IMG/VR virus record: IMGVR_UViG_3300006028_000002
Coordinates: 1 to 64,000 of that record
From: a virus
Length of the DNA stretch: 64,000 nucleotides
Direction: 5' to 3' (one strand)
The position numbers and the translations under genes are program-made. The notes under the pieces are model-generated. The model worked only from the letters and a program-made list of their open reading frames with translations. It was not told the DNA's origin and made no database searches. Positions 470 to 62,410 of this stretch are shown piece by piece. The stretch's first letter is position 1. Each line of letters starts with the position of its first letter.

Positions 470-712
470 TTACTCTCCGGTCATCTCATCGATTCTTTTA
501 ATCAACTCATCGGTGTCCCCCGGCGCAATCTCATCCCACGGGTATGACGCCTTCCCCGACATTCGCGCAGGCATCACATAACCTGCGTACAAGGGGTCAC
601 CGAAACAGTCCAACCAATCCTCTAAACTCGCAATAATAACGCTCAAAACAATCCGATCAGCGTCCTCGCGCGCCATGACCACCTCATCTATGCCTTGGTG
701 CTCTCCTGCCAC
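470..712 (-). CDS. hypothetical protein
   Basis: 80-aa acidic ORF overlapping the end of the endonuclease gene; low GC. Confidence 0.55.
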   Translation of the reverse strand: MAGEHQGIDEVVMAREDADRIVLSVIIASLEDWLDCFGDPLYAGYVMPARMSGKASYPWDEIAPGDTDELIKRIDEMTGE

Positions 713-1338
713 TTAACCAAATAATTCAGTAACCCTACTAATCTCGGTACGCTCTCACTCAGTAACCCTAGGGCCGTATTACAGCTTTGGCATAGTACAC
801 CACGTAGATCACCAGTATCATGTTCGTGATCTAAATGCTTACCAGCGGAATCCCCCTTGACATCAGTAATGCTTTCTCCGCATGCCTCGCATCGATCACA
901 CATATCCACCGCTGCCAATTCCTTAAATCCCAAACCATAACGCAGCGAACGGCTATAGTGTGACCTACATAAACCTTTCGCCTGAGCCGTCTGCACACAG
1001 CCCTCCACAGCACATGCGAATTCATCTAAATCAAAACGCACACCAGCATGACGAACTTTAGGCGGTAGTGTCCCATCCCGAGTATGCCGTTGGTAGTGCA
1101 ACGAACATAAGTTACGCGCCACCACAGCAGCACCACAACCATCCTCAGCACACTCGCTCGCTGCCCATAGACGTTTTTGTCGATGTACCCTCACACGAGT
1201 ACCATTTAGATCAACTAGTTTAGGCGGAAGCGTACCAGCCATTCTATGATGATAGTAATGAGAGGAGCACAGGTTACGCGAATGAGGTATACGATCACAG
1301 CCATCTTCGATACATACCGCTAGCTGCATAGTTTTCAT
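688..1338 (-). CDS. endonuclease VII-family (His-Me) nuclease with three N-terminal CCCH repeats
   Basis: C-terminal CEAC...HLDHEHDTGDLRGVLCQSCNTALG; three C-x4-C-x9-LC-x2-HY repeats; AT-richer than flanks. Confidence 0.85.
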   Translation of the reverse strand: MKTMQLAVCIEDGCDRIPHSRNLCSSHYYHHRMAGTLPPKLVDLNGTRVRVHRQKRLWAASECAEDGCGAAVVARNLCSLHYQRHTRDGTLPPKVRHAGVRFDLDEFACAVEGCVQTAQAKGLCRSHYSRSLRYGLGFKELAAVDMCDRCEACGESITDVKGDSAGKHLDHEHDTGDLRGVLCQSCNTALGLLSESVPRLVGLLNYLVKWQESTKA

Positions 1339-1343
1339 ATCCG

Positions 1344-4300
1344 CTATCCCTTCGACAACTCATGGTCATTACTCAACCATCGATTACTCGGAACTTTCCA
1401 TTTCGGTTCAGCCTTAATCTTCACGCCGTACAACTCACCCGACATGCACTCTATCAAAGTGTTCATCGCCTCTGGTGCCTCAGCGGCCGGCACATTCGCT
1501 AAGATTTCATCATGAACAGGAACTAGAATACCTCCACGCCGGCCCCACTTAGTGTCGTAACGCCATCGTAAGAGGCCGTCTACCAGGGTCTCTCTGGCGG
1601 TTCCCTGTACCAGATAGTTGACGATTTTGTGCGGGAATTCGCGGGGTAGCCGCAGCACCCGACCCGAGTACAGGGTGATCGAATCCATGCCGTCTTTCAC
1701 CCGATCACGCATCTGATAACCCCAGCGCTTGACACCCGGGGCCAGCTCATCGAGCGCGTCCACCATGCGTTGGGCCTCGGCCTCGCTGCATCCCACCGTG
1801 TTGGCAATGCGCCAGATGCCCGCGCCATAGAGTTTCGCGAACACCCCGTTTTTCACGTATCCGTACTGGCGGGTGGTGTGATCCGGTCCATACACCTGGA
1901 CAGCAATGATCTTATGCAGTTTGCGGCCGGAGGCGACCAGATCCAAAAGCACCTGGTCCTGGGACAGCGCGGCCAGCACCGCCACCTCGATACCAAACAA
2001 GTCGGCATCGATGAATAGCTCCCCCGGATCGGCGATAAAGCATTCCCGAATACCGCCATGGCTCGGGATGTTCTGTAAGTTTTCATGAACACAGGACATT
2101 CTGCCAGTGTCGGCTTGCAATGTGTACACGGTAGACCGCATTCGCCCGTCCCCGTGCGTGCACAACAAATGATAAGGCCCCAGATAAGCGGTCAACAATC
2201 GATTGTGTTTGCGGAAATCCAGCACCGTATCGATCACGGGTGCCAGCGCATCGGTGCGCGGTAGCCGGGCCAGCACGTCGGCGGCCACACTCGGCTTGCC
2301 GGATTTTTCGCCGAGCGGCAGCTGGCCGGGGTGCGGGCCCACCGTGACCCCGCGGGCCAGCAGGGCTGCGGCGATCTGGTCGTTTGAGCCAGGGTTGTCG
2401 ATGCCCAGACCGGTCAGTGCCCGCCGGGCGGCGTCGCGGGCCGGGGTGTGCTCGGCGATTTTGGCCTCGATGTGCTCGCGATCCAGGCGCAGCCCGAGGA
2501 AGGAAACCGCGCCCACTGCCGCCTGTACGGCCCTCTCGCGGTCGTAGACGCCCTGGGCAGGCATGGGGAGGGTCTCGCCTAGGGCAGCGCAGTCCAGGAC
2601 GTCTGAGACCGCGTAGTCGGCCTGTGTGCGGCATCGAGGGTTGACCTGTGCCCAGCCGGAGCGTTCCCAGGCCACCCAGCCGCCGGTCTCCTCGATGCCG
2701 GAGTTTCTGACCTTGGTGTCGGTGGTCCAGCCGGCCTTGCGGAACAGCTGGGCGCGCCGGGCCTCGGCACCCGGGCTGACCGGATCGCTCAAATGCAGCT
2801 CGGACTGTGGCTTGAGCCCGGCATCCGAGCTCAAGGTGCCCACCGGGTTGTGCAGCTGAGCTTTGATCACCACATCGTGCGCACGAGCCCAGCCGTCCCG
2901 GTAATCGATCATCCCCAGCGCAGCCAGGTGCGAGATCTCCACCGCGGCTGAGTACGCCTCCAGCTCGCGCGCTTGGGCCAGCAACACCACACAGGTGGCG
3001 AACTGAACCGGATCGGCCACGTCGAACACCACGGCGTCATCCCGGTTGCCCAGCTGCACGGTGCGCACCGCGTGATCCGGGTGACCGATCGGATAGCCGG
3101 TGGATTCGATGTCCACGGTGAGCCGGCCAGGTGCAACCCGGTTGGTCATCGCTGCGCGCACGATCTGCCCGGCCACCTCGATCGAGACGCTGTGCGTGGC
3201 ACCGTGGCGCGTCTTGTGCGCGGGCAGCTCCAGAAGATCACCGCCCAGCTCGGCGATGGTGGCCGTTTTCGCGAGGGCCGAACGGATCCCGCGCAGTCGT
3301 TTGTCGATTTCCTTGACCGTGGCGACCAGTTGATCTTTCGCGTAGGCGTAGATGGCGTGCAGCGGATCCTCCGGCGGCGTTTTCTTGATCAGCTTGGTGA
3401 GTTGGTTGCGCTGATCCCGTGCCTGCGCGAGCTGGGCTGCTGTTTCCGCCTCCTGTACCTCTAATGGAGTATCCGTAACAGTGTTTTTATTGCTCGGTGC
3501 CGGCATGATCGCCGAGTCGTACGCGGCACCGCCCTCTTTTGCCTGCTCAAGTGGGGTAGTAAGATCATCGGTGCCGTGTTCCGGGTTTGCTTCCGGTTTA
3601 CGCCCTATAGCGCTTATACGATCTTGATGGGTAGTAAGATCATTATCCCCTATAAGGGTTATAAGGGGTGAGTAACCCGGCACACCCGGCACAATATCAA
3701 ATACACTACTAATAATAGCAGGTCCCGATACATCTTGATCTTGTGCCGGGTTTGCGTTCCGGGTTGTTCCGGTGCCGGGTTGGTTTTCGCTCGAACCTGG
3801 CACCGATATATCGTGACCGTTACTCAAATTGATCGTTATTAGGGTACCCTCATCTACTGTTTGCGGTGTCGCAACAGTTGCGCCCTGAGCTAGTGGATCA
3901 ATTTGGATCATGCTCGACGTCTGTTCGGGTGACGCTGGTGCACAATCCGTGCTCGTTTCCTGGTATTCGATACCCAACGCCGCATTTGCGTGGTCATCCG
4001 TGGAGCCGCTCTGGTTTTGCGGAGCGACATTCCCCGTAGCTGAACGACCATCCGCATCTGCGGAACCCTGTCGATCTTCCGTGGTGACCAGTGGGGGCAT
4101 GTCGGGCTGCTGCGCCGGGTTGGCCGGTCGGTATGGCGGGGGCACCGGGGGCCCGTAGTGGGTGGCACGCTTGCGCAGCGGTCGGACGCGCCCGTGCTCG
4201 CGGGTTTTGCTCTGCGGGTAGCCCAGGTCGGTAAGCCGGCGACCAAACAGGGTGGATGTCATGACCGGGGCCCGTGGTTCGATCCGGCGAAACCATTCCA

Positions 4301-6638
4301 CGAACCACTGGCGCAGCGTGGTGGCGTTGGTGCCCTGCTCGCAGCGCTCCATCTCGGCCTCGATCCACTGGCGTACCGGGTCTTCCTCGGCTGCGATGTC
4401 CTCGGCCCGCCAGCGGATCGGCTCGGGCGCCCGGTACTGCGCGGCGGTATCCGGCTCGGCCAGCCATTCGGCGCTGTAGTGCATGAGCTTGGCCAGCACG
4501 CCCGGGGCCTCGGCATGCCAGACGGCAGGGGTGATCACGCGCCGGGTGCGGGCCACCTCGGTCATGTCGCCTTCGCACGGAATCAGCCGCACCCGGCGGC
4601 GCAGCGCCGGATCCTGAAAGTTGGGGGACTCTTCCTCATTGCAGGTGAGCACCAGGGTGTGGGTGGGCTCGAAGGTTACCGGGTTGCCCCGCATCGGGTT
4701 GCCGGTGAGCGCCGCGCCCCCGGTGAGCTGTTTGAGCCGCGCGGTGGCTAGCTCGCCGCGTCGCGGGGCCTCATCGATGAACGCCAGCCGGATGCCTTTG
4801 AGCGCGAACACGATGGAGGCATGTGCGTTGTCGGCGGAGACCAGTAGCCGGGGGTCGGCCGCCATGCCGTAGGTGCCGAGCAGCGACATGATCAGGTTGA
4901 TGATCGAGGTCTTACCAGCCCCAGTAGGCCCGATGAGTAGCGGCAGCACCGCATCCGCATAGCCGGTCAAGGCCACCGAGAGCACCCGCAGCGCCCACTC
5001 CCGGATGGCGGGGTCTGGCCAGATGGCCGCGGTGTAGGCGTCCCAGTGCGGCGTAGGTGCCCGGGTACCGGCACCGGAGGGTGCGACCCCGGCGGTATGC
5101 AGGTGCGGGGTGTCGGAGGGCACCAGGGCCATCGCCGGGCGTTCCCGGGACCGACGCAGATCCCAGGCCAGCTGGCCAGCCCACAGTATCTCCGGGTCGG
5201 CGTCCAGCTCGGCGGTGGTGGTGGTGGCGGGGTGTCCATCGGTGCGGACCATGGCCCTCATCTTCTGTGCGATGCGGGAGGATTTACCGGCCTCCCCGAA
5301 GGCGGATTTGCGCTTGGCGCGGTTCTTGGACTCGTCACTCTCGGAGTCGGGATCACCATCGGGCATCAGCTCGTAGAGCTCGGTGATCGCCCAGTCGGTC
5401 AGGTCGCCGGGGCTGATCCGCCAGTTGTGCGCGCCCCGCACCAGCCAGGCGCCGGTATCGGAGAGGTAGCGCATCACCGGGCCCATCCGCACCAGCGCGG
5501 CAGCGGCCAGCTTGTGATCGATGAGTCCGCGCGGGTCGAAAGCCTCGGTGCCGATCAGTGCCCGACGTGACCAGAGCGTGGGGGCAGCCGGAGCGAGGAT
5601 CTCCTCACCGGGGGCCTCGGTGGCGTCATCCGGGCCGCTGGCCGCCGGTCGGGGGGCTGCGACCACCTGCATCATCAGGCACGGGTCGTAGTGCGCACGG
5701 GCGGTTAGACCGGTGCCGGTGAGCTCCGAGAGGGCCTTGCGCGCGGCGGACAGGGCCATCGCGTCGAACTCGTGCCCGCGGTTTTCCCCGGCGGTGAGGG
5801 TTTCCCACTGCTCGCGCAACGCGGCCAGTGCCGGGCCGGTGCCGGTGTGCCCGAACGCGCCGGCCCGGACCAGGGCGTACACCCGCCGGGTGGTGGTGTC
5901 GTGGCGCGAGCCGGCGGCAGCGGCCTCCATGTCCTCGGTGGCGGTGAGCCGGATATTGGTGATGTCGGCGCACTCGGGCCGGTCATCGGCCAGTAGTTGG
6001 GTGAGCAGCACCGCACCCTCGGCAACCGGCGCGGCCAGCGCACTGGGACGGGTGGCACCCTCGGCCAGGGCCACCACCCACGCCACTGGTAGCTCGGGCA
6101 GATCCCCCGGCGTCGGGATGCGCTCGGCGGGCGAGCCATCGGGGCCATACCAGCGATAGGGCGCGCCCACCTCATGATGGATTGACGGTGCCACGACGCA
6201 GTAACGATGGTGGCGTTGGAGGATCTCGATGGCGGACTCGGGCCCCAGGTTGGCCGCGTAGCGCCCCGGTGGCACCCGGTAGAACAACGTGCGCGACGGG
6301 CCGGGCGCATCCTCGGTGCCACGTGCGGTGGATGCCCAGGTGGACGGGAGTGATCCCAGCCGGGCCTCCCACTCGGCGAGCACCTCTGCGCCGCGTTTGT
6401 CGACGGAGCCTTTCTGGTAGTGATCGATATCGATTCCGATGACGTTAGCGGGCATGCGCAGCGCAATTGAGTGATAGGCCCTGGTGCGTTCCCATTCTTG
6501 GAGAATGGCTAAGTCAGTGTTTGATCCGTTGTCCCCTGTGTAGCCAGCTGGAGGTGGTGTTTTGGTTTGGGCAGGAACAGGCAGTATGCAATTCCATCCA
6601 GCATCGTAGTATTGGCGCCATGCTGTGCTGAACACCAT
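1344..6638 (-). CDS. fused replicase: prim-pol (AEP) + SF3/D5-like helicase + 3'-5' exonuclease + family A DNA polymerase
   Basis: IGIDID and VVAPSIH (prim-pol); GPTGAGKTS, AFIDE, LVLTCN (SF3 A/B/C); VDIESTG and YAVSD (Exo I/III); TGRMS..NLQNIP, DADLFGIE, KNGVFAKLYG, VQGTA, VHDEI (PolA); one continuous 1764-aa frame. Confidence 0.92.
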   Translation of the reverse strand: MVFSTAWRQYYDAGWNCILPVPAQTKTPPPAGYTGDNGSNTDLAILQEWERTRAYHSIALRMPANVIGIDIDHYQKGSVDKRGAEVLAEWEARLGSLPSTWASTARGTEDAPGPSRTLFYRVPPGRYAANLGPESAIEILQRHHRYCVVAPSIHHEVGAPYRWYGPDGSPAERIPTPGDLPELPVAWVVALAEGATRPSALAAPVAEGAVLLTQLLADDRPECADITNIRLTATEDMEAAAAGSRHDTTTRRVYALVRAGAFGHTGTGPALAALREQWETLTAGENRGHEFDAMALSAARKALSELTGTGLTARAHYDPCLMMQVVAAPRPAASGPDDATEAPGEEILAPAAPTLWSRRALIGTEAFDPRGLIDHKLAAAALVRMGPVMRYLSDTGAWLVRGAHNWRISPGDLTDWAITELYELMPDGDPDSESDESKNRAKRKSAFGEAGKSSRIAQKMRAMVRTDGHPATTTTAELDADPEILWAGQLAWDLRRSRERPAMALVPSDTPHLHTAGVAPSGAGTRAPTPHWDAYTAAIWPDPAIREWALRVLSVALTGYADAVLPLLIGPTGAGKTSIINLIMSLLGTYGMAADPRLLVSADNAHASIVFALKGIRLAFIDEAPRRGELATARLKQLTGGAALTGNPMRGNPVTFEPTHTLVLTCNEEESPNFQDPALRRRVRLIPCEGDMTEVARTRRVITPAVWHAEAPGVLAKLMHYSAEWLAEPDTAAQYRAPEPIRWRAEDIAAEEDPVRQWIEAEMERCEQGTNATTLRQWFVEWFRRIEPRAPVMTSTLFGRRLTDLGYPQSKTREHGRVRPLRKRATHYGPPVPPPYRPANPAQQPDMPPLVTTEDRQGSADADGRSATGNVAPQNQSGSTDDHANAALGIEYQETSTDCAPASPEQTSSMIQIDPLAQGATVATPQTVDEGTLITINLSNGHDISVPGSSENQPGTGTTRNANPAQDQDVSGPAIISSVFDIVPGVPGYSPLITLIGDNDLTTHQDRISAIGRKPEANPEHGTDDLTTPLEQAKEGGAAYDSAIMPAPSNKNTVTDTPLEVQEAETAAQLAQARDQRNQLTKLIKKTPPEDPLHAIYAYAKDQLVATVKEIDKRLRGIRSALAKTATIAELGGDLLELPAHKTRHGATHSVSIEVAGQIVRAAMTNRVAPGRLTVDIESTGYPIGHPDHAVRTVQLGNRDDAVVFDVADPVQFATCVVLLAQARELEAYSAAVEISHLAALGMIDYRDGWARAHDVVIKAQLHNPVGTLSSDAGLKPQSELHLSDPVSPGAEARRAQLFRKAGWTTDTKVRNSGIEETGGWVAWERSGWAQVNPRCRTQADYAVSDVLDCAALGETLPMPAQGVYDRERAVQAAVGAVSFLGLRLDREHIEAKIAEHTPARDAARRALTGLGIDNPGSNDQIAAALLARGVTVGPHPGQLPLGEKSGKPSVAADVLARLPRTDALAPVIDTVLDFRKHNRLLTAYLGPYHLLCTHGDGRMRSTVYTLQADTGRMSCVHENLQNIPSHGGIRECFIADPGELFIDADLFGIEVAVLAALSQDQVLLDLVASGRKLHKIIAVQVYGPDHTTRQYGYVKNGVFAKLYGAGIWRIANTVGCSEAEAQRMVDALDELAPGVKRWGYQMRDRVKDGMDSITLYSGRVLRLPREFPHKIVNYLVQGTARETLVDGLLRWRYDTKWGRRGGILVPVHDEILANVPAAEAPEAMNTLIECMSGELYGVKIKAEPKWKVPSNRWLSNDHELSKG
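3554..3783. repeat. candidate replication origin inside the replicase linker
   Basis: GGGTAGTAAGATCAT x2 (3554, 3629); TATAAGGG x2; tandem ACCCGGCAC; inverted ACCCGGCACAA (3684)/TTGTGCCGGGT (3741) around an AT-rich core; CCGGGTT at 3581, 3746, 3759, 3775. Confidence 0.65.
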
Positions 6639-6639
6639 T

Positions 6640-7128
6640 TCATTTCACCACCCTGTACGTATTCAGCACGGCAAATTCACCCCATGCGGCTAGTGCTGCT
6701 ATGTTGTAAGCTTGCGCTGCATCCCAGGGATTGTCAAAGTAACCAAGGCTCTTATGAGTGTAGTTTACAGTTATCTGTGCTTGCCACTTATTGCGCGATG
6801 GAATCCAGGTTATGCCTTTATAGGGAGATTTGTTACCTCGTTTTTGGCTGTTTGCCTCATTGGTTGATTTAGTGGCTATACGTAAGTTCAACCTTATGTT
6901 GTTCAGGCCGTTATTGTCTCTATGGTCAATCAGTTGGTGCGGTTGAGCATTCATAATTTGCCTATGCAGATATACGAAACGCCGTGGACCGCCCTCTATA
7001 ATACGAGTATAACGAGCTACGTATAGCTTTCCATTTGGTTTGACTACACGCCATTTGTGCGGTGTTATAAGTGGCCAGTCGTCATCGTCAAATACTGTGA
7101 CGTGTCCGGAGGGTAGTAATAGCTGCAT
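6640..7128 (-). CDS. HNH endonuclease with AP2 domain
   Basis: YLHRQIM...IDHRDNNGLNNIRLNLR + YKGITW...WQAQI...LGYF..AAQAYN. Start refined to MQLLLPSG (TGATG overlap with upstream stop). Low GC. Confidence 0.9.
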   Translation of the reverse strand: MQLLLPSGHVTVFDDDDWPLITPHKWRVVKPNGKLYVARYTRIIEGGPRRFVYLHRQIMNAQPHQLIDHRDNNGLNNIRLNLRIATKSTNEANSQKRGNKSPYKGITWIPSRNKWQAQITVNYTHKSLGYFDNPWDAAQAYNIAALAAWGEFAVLNTYRVVK

Positions 7129-7484
7129 CAGCCCACCTGCTCTAATTGTTGCCAGTCGATGCCCGCACCAGTCCCTAGGCAGATGGGGCACAGCCGAGCC
7201 CGGCTGCCGCGGTTTTTGAGCTTGCGCTCGGTGCGACGATCCACGCCCGCCCACACCCGGGCCAGCTGCCACGTGCTGCCGGCGGCCATGGCGACTCGCA
7301 CCAGATTGGCGCAATCCCCGTTGCCGCGAGCATGCGCGGCCAGCCGGGTCGCCAGATCCTCGCTCCATCCGAGGTAATGCGAAGCCCACTGCAATTTGCG
7401 CCCAGGTAATTGCACAGCCACGTAGGGCTTATCAAAATGCAGGAGATATACTGTACCTATGACGTTGGTTCGCACGATACCCAC
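7128..7484 (-). CDS. GIY-YIG-like nuclease
   Basis: VYLLHF...HYLGWSEDLATRLAAH...ERKLK, C-terminal CPIC. Confidence 0.7.
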   Translation of the reverse strand: MGIVRTNVIGTVYLLHFDKPYVAVQLPGRKLQWASHYLGWSEDLATRLAAHARGNGDCANLVRVAMAAGSTWQLARVWAGVDRRTERKLKNRGSRARLCPICLGTGAGIDWQQLEQVG

Positions 7485-45068: not shown

Positions 45069-45731
45069 CTAGTGCGTCACCGGCACATTCGGCCCGAACA
45101 CGATTTGACTACCTGCGCTCGGCGGCTGGCCTGGCACCACGGGCCCGGGATTGATCGGAATCAGCGGGATGATGTTGGGATTGGTGCTGCATTGGAACAG
45201 CACGTAGGCCAGCGGCGGGATGTCGAGCTGCTGATTGTCGATCTGGAGCAGGTGGGCATCGGCCACGTAGAGATCCACACAGGTGTGCAGCCACACGGTG
45301 CGCTCGGAAGGCAACGGCAGCGGGGTGCCCGGCGGGGGCAGAATTTCCAGCGGCACGATCGGCGGCTGCTCGCGCTGCGCCGGAGCGGTGGTGGGTGGCG
45401 GGTTGTACACCGGGCCCGGTGCGGGTGCTGCGGGTGCGGGTGCTGCGGGTGCGGGTGCTGCGGGTCCAGGTGCCGGGGTCACGGGTGCCGGCCGGTTGCG
45501 CCCCAGCAGCCGATCCAGCAGGCTGCGATGCGGTGCGGGGGCAACCGGATCAGCCGGCGCGGGAGCTACCGCAGCGGCCGGGTCAGGGGTGCACAGGATG
45601 CTGCTGGGCAGCAGCTCGAACCCGGGTGCACACGGGTTGACCGGGGCCGCGTCGGCCATCCCGGGCATGGCCAGCAGCAATCCGGTAGCGGTGGCGATCG
45701 CGGCCAGTGGGGGCAATAGTCGTTTCCACAT
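45069..45731 (-). CDS. secreted Pro/Ala-rich protein
   Basis: Signal peptide ending ADA; 15-nt tandem repeat at about 45418-45465 encoding PAAPA x3; two Cys pairs. Confidence 0.7.
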   Translation of the reverse strand: MWKRLLPPLAAIATATGLLLAMPGMADAAPVNPCAPGFELLPSSILCTPDPAAAVAPAPADPVAPAPHRSLLDRLLGRNRPAPVTPAPGPAAPAPAAPAPAAPAPGPVYNPPPTTAPAQREQPPIVPLEILPPPGTPLPLPSERTVWLHTCVDLYVADAHLLQIDNQQLDIPPLAYVLFQCSTNPNIIPLIPINPGPVVPGQPPSAGSQIVFGPNVPVTH

Positions 45732-61180: not shown

Positions 61181-62410
61181 TCAGGCCAACACGCCGAGAC
61201 CCAGCTGGAGACCTTCAGTAGCCAGCGGAATCCGGGTAATAACCTGCGCCGGTTTGTTCACGTTAAGAGGCAGCGTCATCGAGTCCACAATCGCACGTAC
61301 CGGGTTGGTGTTGGGCCACACGATCACATCGATCGGATCGAACGGCTGGAGCGCCGGGTTAGGGATGGTTTGCAGGGTGAACGTCAGCGGCAACGATCGA
61401 TAACGCCGCAGCAACGCCTCACCAGCCAGCACGACATCGCCGTCTGTCTGGAGTAGTGGGCTGGAATAGTAGGTGGTAGCCGGGCCGAACACGTGCGGAT
61501 AGGTGGTGGAGTTCCAGGCCAGCGGACTGGCCGAGTCGGCATTATACGAAATGATGAAATCAGTGATCGAGTTCGGGTCTGTGCCGTACGCGGTCACTAT
61601 GTTGACGACGTTTGTCCGCTTTGTTGACCGGGTGGCTGAGATGACGTTGCCACCCTTGCCGGCCGCCAGTGTGGCTTTCGGTGTGGAGTAGTCCACCAGC
61701 AGGGAGAACACTTCCATGCCGCCATCATTGTTAAATTTGATGGCCGAGTTGTAGATATGGATCAGATCAGCGAGATAGGAATACGTGCTATCCTGCACCA
61801 GCTGATCGCCCACGATGACCGTCTTATCCGGATCGTATCCGGTCCACGTGATCGGCACCCGTACGTTGTAATAAGCACCCGGACCTGCCGGCGACACCCC
61901 CGGGTATGTCTGCTGCTGCGGAATAGCAATGCCGTTGACCAGGCGCTCAAACACGTCCCGGTGCGTGTTTCTATCATTGATCGGAATTGGCATCTGGACG
62001 GAGTTCTGCTGGATCTGCGCGATCCGATCCAGCGCAATGATCTCGATGGGCCCATAGGGTGCGTTATTCTGAGTGACCTGCTCAATCCTATGATAACCGA
62101 GCGGCACCAATTCTTTGTCCCCGTTGGCGTATTCCACACCAAGTTTGACGTACAGTTCCGCGCCGTACGGCTGAAAGGCAGTCCAGGGGTCTATAAATCC
62201 AGGCACCGCGAGATTGCCGGGCACCGTGACGGTCAATGTGGATTTGACGTCGGTCAAAGAACTGATCGTTAAAGTGCCATCGACCACCGGGATATTGATA
62301 CCGGTCGGGTTGGTGCCGAATTGTGGCACTGGGTTGCACAAGGTGATCTGGTACGCGGCCCGGTAGCTTCCCTGTACGGCATTAAGGAAACGCTGGCTTA
62401 CGGGATGCAC
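61181..62410 (-). CDS. tail tip/hub protein (DUF5047-like)
   Basis: PVSQRFL.AV.GS, PYGAEL, VPLG, YYSSPLL, PNPALQP.D. Confidence 0.8.
   Translation of the reverse strand: MHPVSQRFLNAVQGSYRAAYQITLCNPVPQFGTNPTGINIPVVDGTLTISSLTDVKSTLTVTVPGNLAVPGFIDPWTAFQPYGAELYVKLGVEYANGDKELVPLGYHRIEQVTQNNAPYGPIEIIALDRIAQIQQNSVQMPIPINDRNTHRDVFERLVNGIAIPQQQTYPGVSPAGPGAYYNVRVPITWTGYDPDKTVIVGDQLVQDSTYSYLADLIHIYNSAIKFNNDGGMEVFSLLVDYSTPKATLAAGKGGNVISATRSTKRTNVVNIVTAYGTDPNSITDFIISYNADSASPLAWNSTTYPHVFGPATTYYSSPLLQTDGDVVLAGEALLRRYRSLPLTFTLQTIPNPALQPFDPIDVIVWPNTNPVRAIVDSMTLPLNVNKPAQVITRIPLATEGLQLGLGVLA

What the first reader, a model, noticed from the sequence alone, without database searches (positions are those of the whole stretch)
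1344..6638. All-in-one replicase: primase-polymerase, helicase, exonuclease and PolA in one chain
Seen: motifs of four enzymes in one 1764-aa frame with no stop. Known: prim-pol/SF3 fusions and separate PolA genes are each common in phages; a primase-helicase-PolA fusion is known from the apicoplast (Prex) but uses a T7-like primase-helicase. Inference: an independent AEP/SF3/PolA fusion. SF3 helicases are hexamers, so up to six polymerases could be tethered, or the linker is cleaved.
Basis: partly seen in the sequence, partly recalled or inferred. Interest (0 to 1): 0.82.

Follow-up and report, generated by a model that had tools for sequence, protein, structure and literature searches.

The report
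One-chain phage replicase with translated origin
A soil phage makes its primase, helicase, origin-binding domain and proofreading DNA polymerase as one protein, and the DNA that codes for the floppy linker between helicase and polymerase looks like the phage's own replication origin.

Summary
Window 1344-6638 (minus strand) is one 1764-aa ORF: AEP Prim-Pol, D5-like SF3 helicase, winged helix, a ~230-aa predicted-disordered linker, then 3'-5' exonuclease and PolA. An independent assembly reproduces it with no differences.

It is not unique. At least 216 protein clusters share the architecture. One ORF holds all three modules in 31 of 68 viral loci and 14 of 35 Actinomycetota genome loci. No cultured phage or plasmid record holds it.

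It is a separate fusion from Pas55 of phiAsp2 and from Prex.

New here: the linker DNA is an iteron array.
- A locus-specific 10-bp word occurs at 16.2 per kb in linkers and 0.089 per kb elsewhere.
- It lies on both strands and in all reading frames, with helical spacing in the mapped loci.
- The gene's most A+T-rich spot sits beside it.
- Two residues on the predicted wing co-vary with two iteron bases.

The window's array is at 3571-3803.

Whether the chain stays whole is untested. This scan has noted the same phenomenon before on other DNA. I rate it a new variant of known kinds.

The parts
1344..6638 (-). Whole replicase ORF, 1764 aa plus stop
   Evidence: independent assembly
6123..6614 (-). 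AEP primase-polymerase domain (aa 9-172); D70xD72 and H143/H144 are invariant
   Evidence: Pfam PF09250, 73.2 bits; alignment
5136..5483 (-). D5_N-like region (aa 386-501), a weak match
   Evidence: PF08706, 19.9 bits, below the 22.4 cut-off; phrog_1156 spans aa 2-815
4611..4937 (-). SF3 NTPase core (aa 568-676) with Walker A, Walker B, motif C and Arg finger
   Evidence: PF19263; invariant residues; model pLDDT 90.7 and Foldseek match to ASFV PrimPol (TMq 0.78), SaPI5 PriRep, MPXV E5 and vaccinia D5
4170..4379 (-). Predicted winged-helix domain (aa 754-823). K811 (4206-4208) and R817 (4188-4190) lie on the two wing strands
   Evidence: AF2 secondary structure H-E-H-H-E-E; co-variation with iteron bases
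3477..4172 (-). Predicted disordered linker (aa 823-1054)
   Evidence: pLDDT 24-36; hypervariable in length and sequence among relatives
3571..3803 (.). Iteron array: 8 copies of AACCCGGCAC with at most 1 mismatch, on both strands. Positions: 3571-3580, 3578-3587, 3674-3683, 3683-3692, 3743-3752, 3756-3765, 3772-3781, 3794-3803
   Evidence: 16 in the window against 6.83+-2.54 expected; 0 of 100 shuffles reach 16; same layout as the closest relative L003
4112..4121 (-). Outlying ninth iteron copy at the start of the linker
3693..3742 (.). A+T-rich 50-bp spacer (68% A+T) between facing iterons; candidate unwinding element
   Evidence: window 39% A+T, ORF 35%; it holds the most A+T-rich 40-mer of the gene
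3243..3464 (-). Helical hairpin (aa 1059-1132) that opens the polymerase module
   Evidence: AF2 pLDDT about 97; conserved GG.L..LPA.K.R motif
2439..3221 (-). 3'-5' exonuclease domain (aa about 1140-1400); Exo I D1176/E1178, Exo II E1234, Exo III Y1342/D1346
1347..2438 (-). Family A polymerase domain (aa about 1401-1764)
   Evidence: PF00476, 146.6 bits; phmmer to Taq, Klenow and Prex structures; the only PolA in the 88-kb genome
6640..7389 (-). HNH endonuclease gene directly upstream; its stop lies 1 nt before the replicase ATG
688..1338 (-). HNH / endonuclease VII gene directly downstream

Best explanation
The ORF is the single-chain replicase of a complete 88-kb tailed actinomycete-type phage.

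Order along the chain:
- an AEP primase-polymerase;
- a D5/PriRep-like SF3 helicase that probably also acts as the initiator;
- a winged-helix origin-binding domain;
- about 230 disordered residues;
- a helical hairpin;
- a proofreading family A polymerase.

The DNA that codes for the disordered linker is most likely the phage's replication origin. It carries iterons in both orientations around an A+T-rich spacer, directly 3' of the winged-helix coding segment. This is the SaPI pri-rep-ori layout, except that the reading frame runs on through the origin into polA, much as lambda ori lies inside gene O.

The wing of the winged helix would read the iterons. Residue 817 pairs with iteron base 6 and residue 811 with base 7.

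Shown here:
- the ORF, its domains and its spread among relatives;
- the iteron arrays and their restriction to the linker;
- the A+T-rich spot;
- the co-variation;
- the open frame.

Inferred, not shown:
- DNA binding and origin firing;
- hexamer formation;
- that the protein acts uncleaved, so that each helicase ring carries up to six tethered polymerases.
For: 1. ORF and domains. The host record is an 88,063-bp virus with terminal repeats, rated 100% complete. Tail, endolysin and other phage genes are present.

2. The fusion is conserved.
- 216 clusters match at E<=0.001 among 8000 scored. Of the 120 listed, 116 carry PF00476 together with PF09250 and/or PF19263.
- One ORF holds all three modules in 31 of 68 viral loci and 14 of 35 genome loci.

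3. The linker frame is open in 47 of 47 distinct loci. This is by selection of the set, but no locus with both modules is broken in the linker. Only 6 of 235 alternative frames of the same DNA are open.

4. Iterons.
- The top 8-mer count in the linker exceeds every same-size control window of the same gene in 40 of 47 loci.
- There are 405 matches in linkers (16.15 per kb) against 72 elsewhere in the loci (0.089 per kb). 41 of 47 loci have at least 6 copies.
- The copies lie on both strands and in all three frames, at spacings of 9, 10-11 and 21 bp in the mapped loci.
- The minus orientation of AACCCGTCAC is never in the frame that would read TGA. Words without a stop do use that frame.

5. 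Window: 9 of the gene's 9 matches lie in the linker. The window holds 16 against 6.83+-2.54 expected, and 8 of them lie within 233 nt. The layout is three forward copies, 50 bp at 68% A+T, two inverted copies, 86 bp, two forward copies.

6. The most A+T-rich 40-mer of the whole gene lies in the linker in 40 of 47 loci, although the linker is about 10% of the gene.

7. Iteron type changes at least 16 times on the tree, even between near-identical proteins.

8. Co-variation in 39 usable loci of 47.
- Base 6 = G goes with K or R at 817 in 21 of 24 loci.
- Base 6 = T goes with N or H in 11 of 15.
- Base 7 = T goes with H at 811 in 21 of 23.
- Base 7 = C or G goes with K or R in 14 of 16.
- Independent pairs: 7.6 of 9 and 6.8 of 7 go the same way, none the other way.
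- Against 1124 columns each given its own best-fitted split, columns 817 and 811 rank first, and none reaches the anchored scores.

9. Both residues lie on the predicted wing strands. In SaPI5 PriRep5 the wing reads the iteron bases in the major groove (preprint passages).

10. The global minimum of cumulative GC skew of the 88-kb genome is at 1-3 kb, about 1-2 kb from the array.
Against: - There is no binding, replication, RNA or protein data. No listed sequencing run is RNA.
- Residues 811 and 817 were chosen after looking at the data. The cross-pairings also lean the same way (p 0.22 and 0.06), because GT-to-TC switches change both bases at once.
- 6 of 47 loci have weak arrays or none.
- In the window the exact 8-mer count (4) does not exceed the control windows (4). 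The signal there needs 1 mismatch allowed.
- The GC dip in the linker occurs in 54 of 54 loci and can come from amino-acid composition, so it is no evidence for an origin by itself.
- The GC-skew minimum is 1-2 kb off the array, and skew is also shaped by transcription.
- Four cultured phages with separate primase/helicase and PolA genes show no array between the two genes.
- Stand-alone PolA genes of the same clade have none nearby.
- A true split form exists, P0125 plus P0132 on one contig, so the fusion is not obligatory.
- The O-helix Arg (Taq R659) is Tyr in the window's clade, so full polymerase activity is not certain.
Confidence: 0.7

Rival explanations
1. The iteron array binds the winged helix but is not the origin. 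It could be an autoregulatory operator, a copy-control or incompatibility site (handcuffing), or a partition or packaging site. The origin would lie elsewhere.
For: - Iterons serve control roles as well as initiation in iteron replicons (search-listing abstracts only).
- The GC-skew minimum lies 1-2 kb away from the array.
- Rapid switching of specificity would also suit an incompatibility determinant.
Against: - The layout, facing iterons around the gene's most A+T-rich spot directly 3' of an SF3 initiator's winged helix, is the SaPI origin layout.
- No second cluster of the word exists in the 64-kb window. The 7 other matches are scattered and fit the chance expectation of 6.8.
Confidence: 0.12
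2. The gene is translated as one frame, but the working enzymes are separate. The linker is cut by a protease, or an internal start gives a free roughly 700-aa polymerase. The fusion would then matter only for co-expression and stoichiometry.
For: - Prex is described as a polyprotein (passage).
- Database gene calls start at an internal Met just before the helical hairpin in relatives (P0124, 11 member sequences).
- Stand-alone PolA genes of this clade exist (L043, L082, L084, L088).
- A true split form exists (P0125 plus P0132).
Against: - The frame is kept open through 106-362 hypervariable codons in every locus that has both modules, while other frames of the same DNA are open in 6 of 235 cases. 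That is hard to explain without selection for read-through.
- By eye, in the bases before the window's only linker Met near the hairpin (aa 1046), I saw no good ribosome-binding site (sequence). This was not analysed systematically.
Confidence: 0.3
3. The repeats are selected at the protein level as short linear motifs that dock a partner such as a clamp or SSB. The DNA repeats would be a by-product.
For: Recurring peptides such as NPSx, VTGS, xDGL and QTRH are seen in many linkers.
Against: - These peptides are translations of one DNA word on both strands and in three frames.
- Spacings are 9, 10, 11 and 21 bp, not multiples of 3.
- All copies in a locus change together between sister phages.
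Confidence: 0.03
4. The long ORF is an assembly chimera or a decaying pseudogene.
For: The record comes from a metagenome. The only full holder among public runs is probably the source sample.
Against: - A second assembler gives the same sequence.
- Catalytic residues are invariant.
- The same architecture is found in isolate genomes of Kribbella, Nocardioides, Micromonospora and Labedaea.
Confidence: 0.01

Closest known systems
SaPI5 PriRep5 with its ori (staphylococcal pathogenicity islands)
   Same: - An AEP primase is fused to an SF3 helicase with a C-terminal winged helix.
- 6-12 short iterons in both orientations lie around an A+T-rich region, starting right after the rep coding sequence.
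- The wing beta-hairpin reads the iteron bases.
Sources: passages. The fold match to 7ola has TMq 0.57.
   Different: - In SaPIs the origin lies after the stop codon and there is no polymerase.
- Here the frame runs through the origin into an Exo-PolA module.
- The iterons here are 10 bp, not 5-7 bp.
Phage lambda O protein and ori-lambda
   Same: The origin (iterons plus an A+T-rich region) lies in the middle of the initiator's own gene. Extra iterons add residues to the protein (passages).
   Different: O is neither primase, helicase nor polymerase. The DNA-binding domain and the iterons are unrelated to those here.
Pas55 of Actinoplanes phage phiAsp2 (Kazlauskas et al. 2016)
   Same: Primase, SF3 helicase and PolA in one chain of an actinophage (passage).
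   Different: - The N-terminus is TOPRIM-like (DUF3854), not AEP.
- Only the PolA part aligns with the window protein, at 27% identity.
- No 8-mer array was seen inside the gene.
gp55 of Lactococcus phage 1706 and Rhodococcus phages
   Same: AEP primase, SF3 helicase and a polymerase in one chain (passage).
   Different: The polymerase is family B. I did not fetch or compare it here.
Prex of the apicoplast, and 'Hot Spring' cluster 8 PolAs
   Same: N-terminal primase and helicase joined to an exo-proficient PolA. About 7% of bacterial cluster 8 PolAs carry an N-terminal AEP (passages). Prex PolA structures match at E 5e-18.
   Different: Prex uses a TOPRIM primase. The AEP-PolA cases named are in Verrucomicrobia, Planctomycetota and Nitrospirae, with no SF3 helicase mentioned. 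This family is in Actinomycetota.
ASFV C962R PrimPol, vaccinia D5 and MPXV E5
   Same: Hexameric AEP-SF3 primase-helicases. They are the best structural matches of the helicase model, with TMq up to 0.78.
   Different: They belong to eukaryotic viruses, have no fused polymerase, and have no origin in the gene as far as the entry titles tell.
Phage P4 gp-alpha
   Same: Primase, SF3 helicase and a C-terminal winged helix that binds the origin (passage in Kazlauskas 2016).
   Different: The primase is of DnaG type and there is no polymerase. The position of its iterons is from recall, not from a call.

Membership tests
AEP primase-polymerase (Pfam Prim-Pol PF09250) | Profile match above the curated cut-off | tested here: met
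   73.2 bits against a cut-off of 22.8, aa 9-172
AEP primase-polymerase (Pfam Prim-Pol PF09250) | Catalytic motifs I (DxD) and II (sxH); the motif names are recalled | tested here: met
   D70, D72, H143 and H144 are invariant in 14 sequences
AEP primase-polymerase (Pfam Prim-Pol PF09250) | Third catalytic carboxylate (motif III) | tested here: inconclusive
   D247 is invariant but lies outside the Pfam match, so I did not assign it
D5/P4-like SF3 helicase | Walker A, Walker B, motif C Asn and Arg finger | tested here: met
   G575-K576, D622-E623, N667 and R680/682/684 are invariant; PF19263 scores 30.9 against a cut-off of 27.6
D5/P4-like SF3 helicase | D5_N domain | tested here: inconclusive
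   19.9 bits, below the 22.4 cut-off; some relatives carry PF08706 in precomputed hits
D5/P4-like SF3 helicase | Fold like solved hexameric AEP-SF3 helicases | tested here: met
   Model pLDDT 90.7; Foldseek: 8iqi_C at E 9e-13 and TMq 0.78, 7ola_A at E 5e-9, 8apl_A
D5/P4-like SF3 helicase | Forms hexamers and unwinds DNA | not testable with these tools
   Needs biochemistry
Family A DNA polymerase with 3'-5' exonuclease | PF00476 above the cut-off; motif A Asp/Glu, motif B Lys/Phe/Tyr, motif C HDE | tested here: met
   146.6 bits; residues invariant; aligned to Taq D610, E615, K663, F667 and Y671 (the Taq residue numbers are recalled)
Family A DNA polymerase with 3'-5' exonuclease | O-helix Arg (Taq R659 / Klenow R754) | tested here: not met
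   It aligns with Tyr in the window and its clade. It is Arg in the shorter-linker clade
Family A DNA polymerase with 3'-5' exonuclease | Exo I DxE, Exo II acidic residue, Exo III YxxxD | tested here: met
   D1176/E1178 and Y1342/D1346 are invariant. Exo II is Glu in the window's clade and Asp in the other. No PF01612 hit for the window protein itself
Iteron-type origin next to an SF3 initiator (SaPI type) | At least 6 short repeats in both orientations | tested here: met
   9 copies in the window; at least 6 copies in 41 of 47 loci
Iteron-type origin next to an SF3 initiator (SaPI type) | A+T-rich region flanked by opposed iterons | tested here: met
   50 bp at 68% A+T between forward and inverted copies; holds the gene's A+T maximum in 40 of 47 loci
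Iteron-type origin next to an SF3 initiator (SaPI type) | Directly 3' of the initiator's winged-helix coding segment | tested here: met
   The winged helix ends at aa 823 and the first iteron is at aa about 839
Iteron-type origin next to an SF3 initiator (SaPI type) | Lies outside the coding sequence | tested here: not met
   It is translated as the linker
Iteron-type origin next to an SF3 initiator (SaPI type) | The initiator binds the iterons and replication starts there | not testable with these tools
   Only indirect support: co-variation and the GC-skew minimum 1-2 kb away
Pas55-type TOPRIM/SF3/PolA fusion | TOPRIM/DnaG-type primase at the N-terminus | tested here: not met
   The window has Prim-Pol and Pas55 has DUF3854. 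There is no N-terminal similarity
Prex | TOPRIM primase plus helicase as in the apicoplast enzyme | tested here: not met
   The window has AEP plus SF3; Prex's make-up is from paper passages

The most novel reading that the evidence does not exclude
The gene is a self-contained minimal replicon. One ORF encodes every catalytic activity needed to start and copy DNA, and it contains its own origin as the translated linker.

- The winged helix leaves the ribosome just as the origin-coding DNA is being transcribed and translated, so the initiator would load in cis on the very DNA molecule that encoded it.
- Each helicase ring would carry six tethered proofreading polymerases.
- A two-residue wing code (811 and 817) would set origin specificity. 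It flips repeatedly between near-identical phages, which would isolate co-infecting replicons from each other.
Probability: 0.3. Interest if true: 0.85.

Novelty: new variant of a known kind. Interest (0 to 1): 0.66.

Why it matters
- A single polypeptide plus a roughly 250-bp DNA element may be enough to start and carry out DNA replication. That would be one of the most compact replication systems, and attractive for cell-free or synthetic-cell DNA replication.
- The family offers dozens of natural 'specificity swaps'. These turn an open question, how self-loading SF3 helicases read their origins, into a simple test: mutate two wing residues and change two bases.
- It shows how a gene fusion can arise by reading through a cis-acting site.
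- It gives annotators a rule: in these genes the 'low-complexity linker' is probably the origin.
- Prophage-bearing strains that can be grown appear among the genome records, so the predictions can be tested at the bench.

Tried and rejected
**Searches and scans that found nothing**
- Megablast of the ORF against cultured phages: no match.
- tblastn of P0001 and P0016: no phage record (0 of 50,697) and no plasmid record (0 of 72,556) covers 80% or more in one place.
- Four cultured phages with separate genes (Mabodamaca, Pumpkins, Samy, Attoomi) and phiAsp2 Pas55: no 8-mer array at the helicase-polymerase junction. So I dropped the idea that all actinophages with adjacent genes keep the origin there.
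- Stand-alone PolA loci L043, L082, L084 and L088, and loci L030, L044 and L045: no arrays.
- Unfused AEP-helicase genes: an array at the 3' end only in L055/L092, L093 and L101. The others have none there.

**Evidence I set aside**
- I rejected the GC dip of the linker as origin evidence. It occurs in 54 of 54 loci and fits composition.
- Divergence by segment in sister pairs was only suggestive.

**Names I could not confirm**
- Pfam gave no named intein family for the insertions in P0003 and P0012, so I call them intein-like only.

**Sequencing runs**
- No RNA holder was listed.
- Run X2 holds only a 235-nt conserved piece.
- The runs laid were contigs, not raw reads.

**Literature**
- I made six searches of the held library. 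None showed a paper that describes an AEP/SF3/PolA fusion in Actinomycetota phages or an origin in its linker.
The supplements of Kazlauskas 2016 may list more fusions.
- Papers, and how much of each I saw:
  - PMC4889955: passages.
  - PMC10201439: passages.
  - PMC5862659: 12 of 18 places, with no PolA fusion in them.
  - PMC9371898: passages.
  - bioRxiv 10.64898/2026.10.17.759575: passages.
  - PMC7466680: passages.
  - PMC3583192: abstract.
  - PMC4234260: start of the abstract in a listing only.

**Not done**
- The search of protein representatives, the protein-atlas search and a fold search of model 2 were not run.
- Internal translation starts were not analysed systematically.
- The polarity of the helicase and the side of the ring from which the polymerase would hang were left out of the argument, because I only recall them.
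Full report
**1. Observation**

Window 1344-6638 on the minus strand is one ATG-started ORF of 1764 codons.
- Pfam finds Prim-Pol (aa 9-172), a weak D5_N (aa 386-501, below the cut-off), the SF3 NTPase family DUF5906 (aa 568-676) and DNA_pol_A (aa 1415-1742).
- PHROGs splits the protein into a 'DNA primase' match over aa 2-815 (E 1.7e-102) and a 'DNA polymerase' match over aa 1169-1750 (E 1.9e-70). Nothing matches in between.
- In an alignment with 13 full-length relatives of 45-70% identity, the catalytic residues of all four activities are invariant.
- The exception is the O-helix Arg of PolA, which is Tyr in the window's clade.
- Logan's independent assembly of run X1, probably the source sample, holds window 1000-7000 in one 88,025-nt contig with no differences.

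**2. Context**

The window is the first 64 kb of an 88,063-bp IMG/VR virus record with terminal repeats, rated 100% complete. I measured the repeat as 50 bp.
- Neighbouring genes include HNH and endonuclease VII genes on both sides of the replicase, two further helicases, a Cas4-like exonuclease, an FtsK/TraB-like protein, an endolysin and a tail protein.
- This ORF holds the genome's only family A polymerase.

**3. Spread of the fusion**

- A length-matched search of 5.8 billion proteins gave 216 hits at E<=0.001 among 8000 scored. The 120 listed are 1507-2154 aa, and 116 of them carry PF00476 together with PF09250 and/or PF19263. Named sources include Prauserella, Labedaea, Micromonospora, Nocardioides, Jatrophihabitans and a Mycobacterium MAG.
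- I fetched 68 viral loci and 35 genome loci and classified their stop-to-stop ORFs by BLASTP against three modules of the window protein.

| Class | Viral loci (of 68) | Genome loci (of 35) |
|---|---|---|
| AEP + SF3 + PolA in one ORF | 31 | 14 |
| Broken by a frameshift inside PolA | 0 | 1 (L083) |
| SF3 + PolA with another or a cut N-terminus | 12 | 0 |
| AEP + PolA | 1 | 0 |
| PolA only | 7 | 7 |
| AEP-helicase only | 17 | 13 |

- In the viral PolA-only class, four loci are cut by a contig end, two are long ORFs with an unrecognised N-terminus, and one stands alone.
- Several viral and genome loci are the same prophage. After removing duplicates there are 47 distinct linkers, counting the window.
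- No cultured phage or plasmid record holds the fused gene. In cultured Arthrobacter, Microbacterium and Streptomyces phages the two genes are adjacent but separate, at 26-30% identity.
- Split forms also exist nearer to the family: P0125 plus P0132 on one contig.

**4. What is in print**

- Kazlauskas et al. 2016 name 'two cases' of helicase-primase-polymerase fusion. One is gp55 of Lactococcus phage 1706 (AEP, SF3, PolB). The other is Pas55 of Actinoplanes phage phiAsp2 (DnaG-type primase, SF3, PolA) (passage).
- I fetched Pas55. It has a TOPRIM-like DUF3854 domain and aligns with the window protein only in PolA, at 27% identity.
- Czernecki et al. 2023 record N-terminal AEP fusions in about 7% of bacterial 'cluster 8' PolAs of other phyla, and the TOPRIM/helicase polyprotein Prex. 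They list 'no known partners' for the actinophage D29-like cluster (passages).
- So the kind is known. This AEP/SF3/PolA family of Actinomycetota phages was not found in six searches of the held library. Supplements were closed.

**5. The linker as protein**

- Between the end of the helicase module (about aa 825) and the start of the polymerase module (about aa 1126), relatives differ in length (106-362 aa, median 152) and hardly align.
- AlphaFold2 on aa 790-1764 gives pLDDT 24-36 for aa 823-1054. It then predicts a confident helical hairpin (aa 1059-1132) and a complete Exo-Pol fold with pLDDT above 90.
- One relative has an endonuclease VII domain in frame in its linker.

**6. The linker as DNA**

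Recurring peptides in the linkers (NPSx, VTGS, xDGL, QTRH, QPVT; in the window NPAQ, QPGT, VPGV) turned out to be translations of one 10-bp DNA word on both strands and in different frames.
- The top 8-mer count in the linker (6-13 copies) exceeds every same-size control window of the same gene (at most 3-5) in 40 of 47 loci.
- With a locus-specific 10-mer and at most 1 mismatch there are 405 matches in linkers (16.15 per kb) against 72 in the rest of the loci (0.089 per kb). 41 of 47 loci have at least 6 copies. The word was chosen from the linker, so one search's like-for-like control is the fairer test.
- Spacings are 9, 10-11 and 21 bp.
- The inverted form of AACCCGTCAC never lies in the frame that would read TGA. 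Words without a stop use all frames.
- The most A+T-rich 40-mer of the whole gene lies in the linker in 40 of 47 loci.
- The coding frame is open through all 47 linkers, while only 6 of 235 alternative frames are open.

**7. The window's array**

- AACCCGGCAC with at most 1 mismatch occurs 16 times in 64 kb, against 6.83+-2.54 expected. None of 100 shuffles reaches 16.
- Eight copies lie in 3571-3803 and one at 4112-4121.
- Read on the coding strand the order is:
  - one inverted copy;
  - three forward copies;
  - 50 bp at 68% A+T (window 39%);
  - two inverted copies;
  - 86 bp at 56% A+T;
  - two forward copies.
- The closest relative, L003, has the same order with AACCCGTCAC.

**8. Who reads the iterons**

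- AlphaFold2 on aa 540-830 (43 sequences, pLDDT 90.7) predicts a winged helix after the AAA+ core: H754-762, E763-771, H772-786, H795-804, E810-812, E816-823.
- Foldseek matches hexameric AEP-SF3 helicases, among them the SaPI5 primase-helicase.
- On a tree of 47 replicases the iteron type changes at least 16 times, even between near-identical proteins.
- Column 817 has the highest mutual information with iteron type of 1464 columns.
- Co-variation with motif-anchored residues, in 39 usable loci of 47 (the 8 dropped loci are named):

| Iteron base | Residue | Count |
|---|---|---|
| Base 6 = G | K or R at 817 | 21 of 24 |
| Base 6 = T | N or H at 817 | 11 of 15 |
| Base 7 = T | H at 811 | 21 of 23 |
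| Base 7 = C or G | K or R at 811 | 14 of 16 |

- In phylogenetically independent pairs, 7.6 of 9 (base 6) and 6.8 of 7 (base 7) go the same way and none the other way. The cross-pairings are weaker (p 0.22 and 0.06).
- Because both residues were picked after the fact, I gave each of 1124 columns its own best-fitted split. Columns 817 and 811 rank first (811 tied with 393), and no column reaches the anchored scores.
- Both residues lie on the two strands of the predicted wing.
- A 2026 preprint reports that the PriRep5 wing sits in the major groove and reads the iteron bases (passages).
- The window has bases GG with K811 and R817.

**9. Comparison and model**

- SaPIs place the origin, 6-12 iterons in both orientations around an A+T-rich centre, immediately after rep. 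In SaPI5, pri and rep are fused (passages).
- In lambdoid phages the origin lies in the middle of gene O, and extra iterons add residues to O (passages).
- The family here combines both arrangements: pri-rep-WH, then the origin, then polA, all in one frame.

I infer the following; none of it is shown.
- The initiator-helicase loads at its own linker DNA.
- The AEP domain primes.
- The tethered PolA extends.

A hexameric ring would carry up to six polymerases on tethers of about 230 residues, unless the chain is cut or the polymerase is also made from an internal start.

**10. An independent but weak check**

The cumulative GC skew of the whole genome has its global minimum at 1-3 kb and its maximum near 63-64 kb. 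At 150-nt resolution the minimum is near 2.1-2.2 kb. The array is thus within about 1.5 kb of the minimum, but skew also reflects transcription.

**11. Against, and limits**

- There is no wet-lab data.
- 6 of 47 loci have weak arrays.
- In the window the exact 8-mer test alone is not significant.
- Cultured split-gene phages and stand-alone PolA genes lack arrays.
- The fusion is not obligatory.
- The Tyr-for-Arg change leaves polymerase proficiency open.

**12. Earlier notes of this scan**

- A first-stage note on this same window had flagged the iteron array (e1-6113243), and another the PolA pocket (e1-6113244).
- Follow-up reports on other genomes reached the same reading for an 82-kb phage with an 1839-aa AEP version (e1-5870900) and for TOPRIM versions. 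A first-stage note on a 1562-aa version had seen that the peptide repeats are reverse complements of each other (e1-5700465).
- These are leads, not evidence. What I tested here is given above.

**13. Verdict**

This is a real, conserved, single-chain AEP/SF3/Exo-PolA replicase. The fusion as such is a new family of a described kind. The origin translated as its linker, with a two-residue wing code, is the part that deserves experiments.

Noticed in passing
window 688-1338 and 6640-7389 (both minus strand): The replicase is bracketed by two HNH / endonuclease VII genes of much lower GC (0.43-0.53, against about 0.7 in the replicase). They are packed within 1 nt and 5 nt of its start and stop, and look like free-standing homing endonucleases.
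   Followed up: partly
window about 1850-1870 (aa 1590-1596): The O-helix Arg of family A polymerases (Taq R659) aligns with Tyr in the window and its clade, with an Arg two residues earlier in most of them. The shorter-linker clade keeps Arg.
   Followed up: partly
proteins P0003 and P0012 (relatives): Insertions of about 370-390 aa split DNA_pol_A into two stretches. One sits inside motif B (P0003) and one just before the SCVHENLQ segment (P0012). Both have Cys at the N-side junction and Asn followed by Cys or Ser at the C-side junction. They are intein-like, but Pfam gave no named intein family.
   Followed up: partly
protein P0006 aa 907-956: An endonuclease VII domain (PF02945, E 3.7e-9) lies in frame inside the linker of a relative.
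   Followed up: partly
window 3554-3568 and 3629-3643: An exact 15-nt direct repeat, 75 nt apart. One copy lies in the 86-bp spacer of the iteron array and the other just outside it. Its role is unknown.
   Followed up: no
window 45395-45479 and 61297-61360: Two pairs of one-mismatch copies of the iteron word lie within 85 nt and 64 nt of each other. The total count outside the linker fits chance.
   Followed up: no
L079 and L080: One 101,680-nt contig of a Nocardioides MAG holds two identical copies of the fused gene about 47 kb apart. This could be a tandem prophage or an assembly repeat.
   Followed up: no
L083 (Actinophytocola sp. chromosome): The fused gene is broken by a frameshift inside the PolA domain, while its linker and iterons (9 copies) are intact. 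This may be a decaying prophage or a sequencing error.
   Followed up: no
protein P0125 C-terminal tail: In the split form, the helicase protein carries a second, diverged copy of the winged-helix-like segment after the first one.
   Followed up: no
L055/L092, L093, L101: Unfused AEP-helicase genes of 800-990 aa have their own 8-mer repeat arrays (5-7 copies) exactly at the 3' end of the gene or just downstream, which is the pri-rep-ori order.
   Followed up: partly
whole genome (window + L111 + L112): Cumulative GC skew rises from about 2 kb to about 63-64 kb and then falls to the end. The shape would fit bidirectional replication with unequal arms.
   Followed up: partly
L074: A contig binned as 'Polyangiales' carries a typical member of this otherwise actinobacterial family. 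It is probably mis-binned.
   Followed up: no
window 6456-6638: The database gene call for this ORF (P0002, 1703 aa) starts 61 codons downstream of the first ATG. Conservation from residue 1 favours the longer form.
   Followed up: yes
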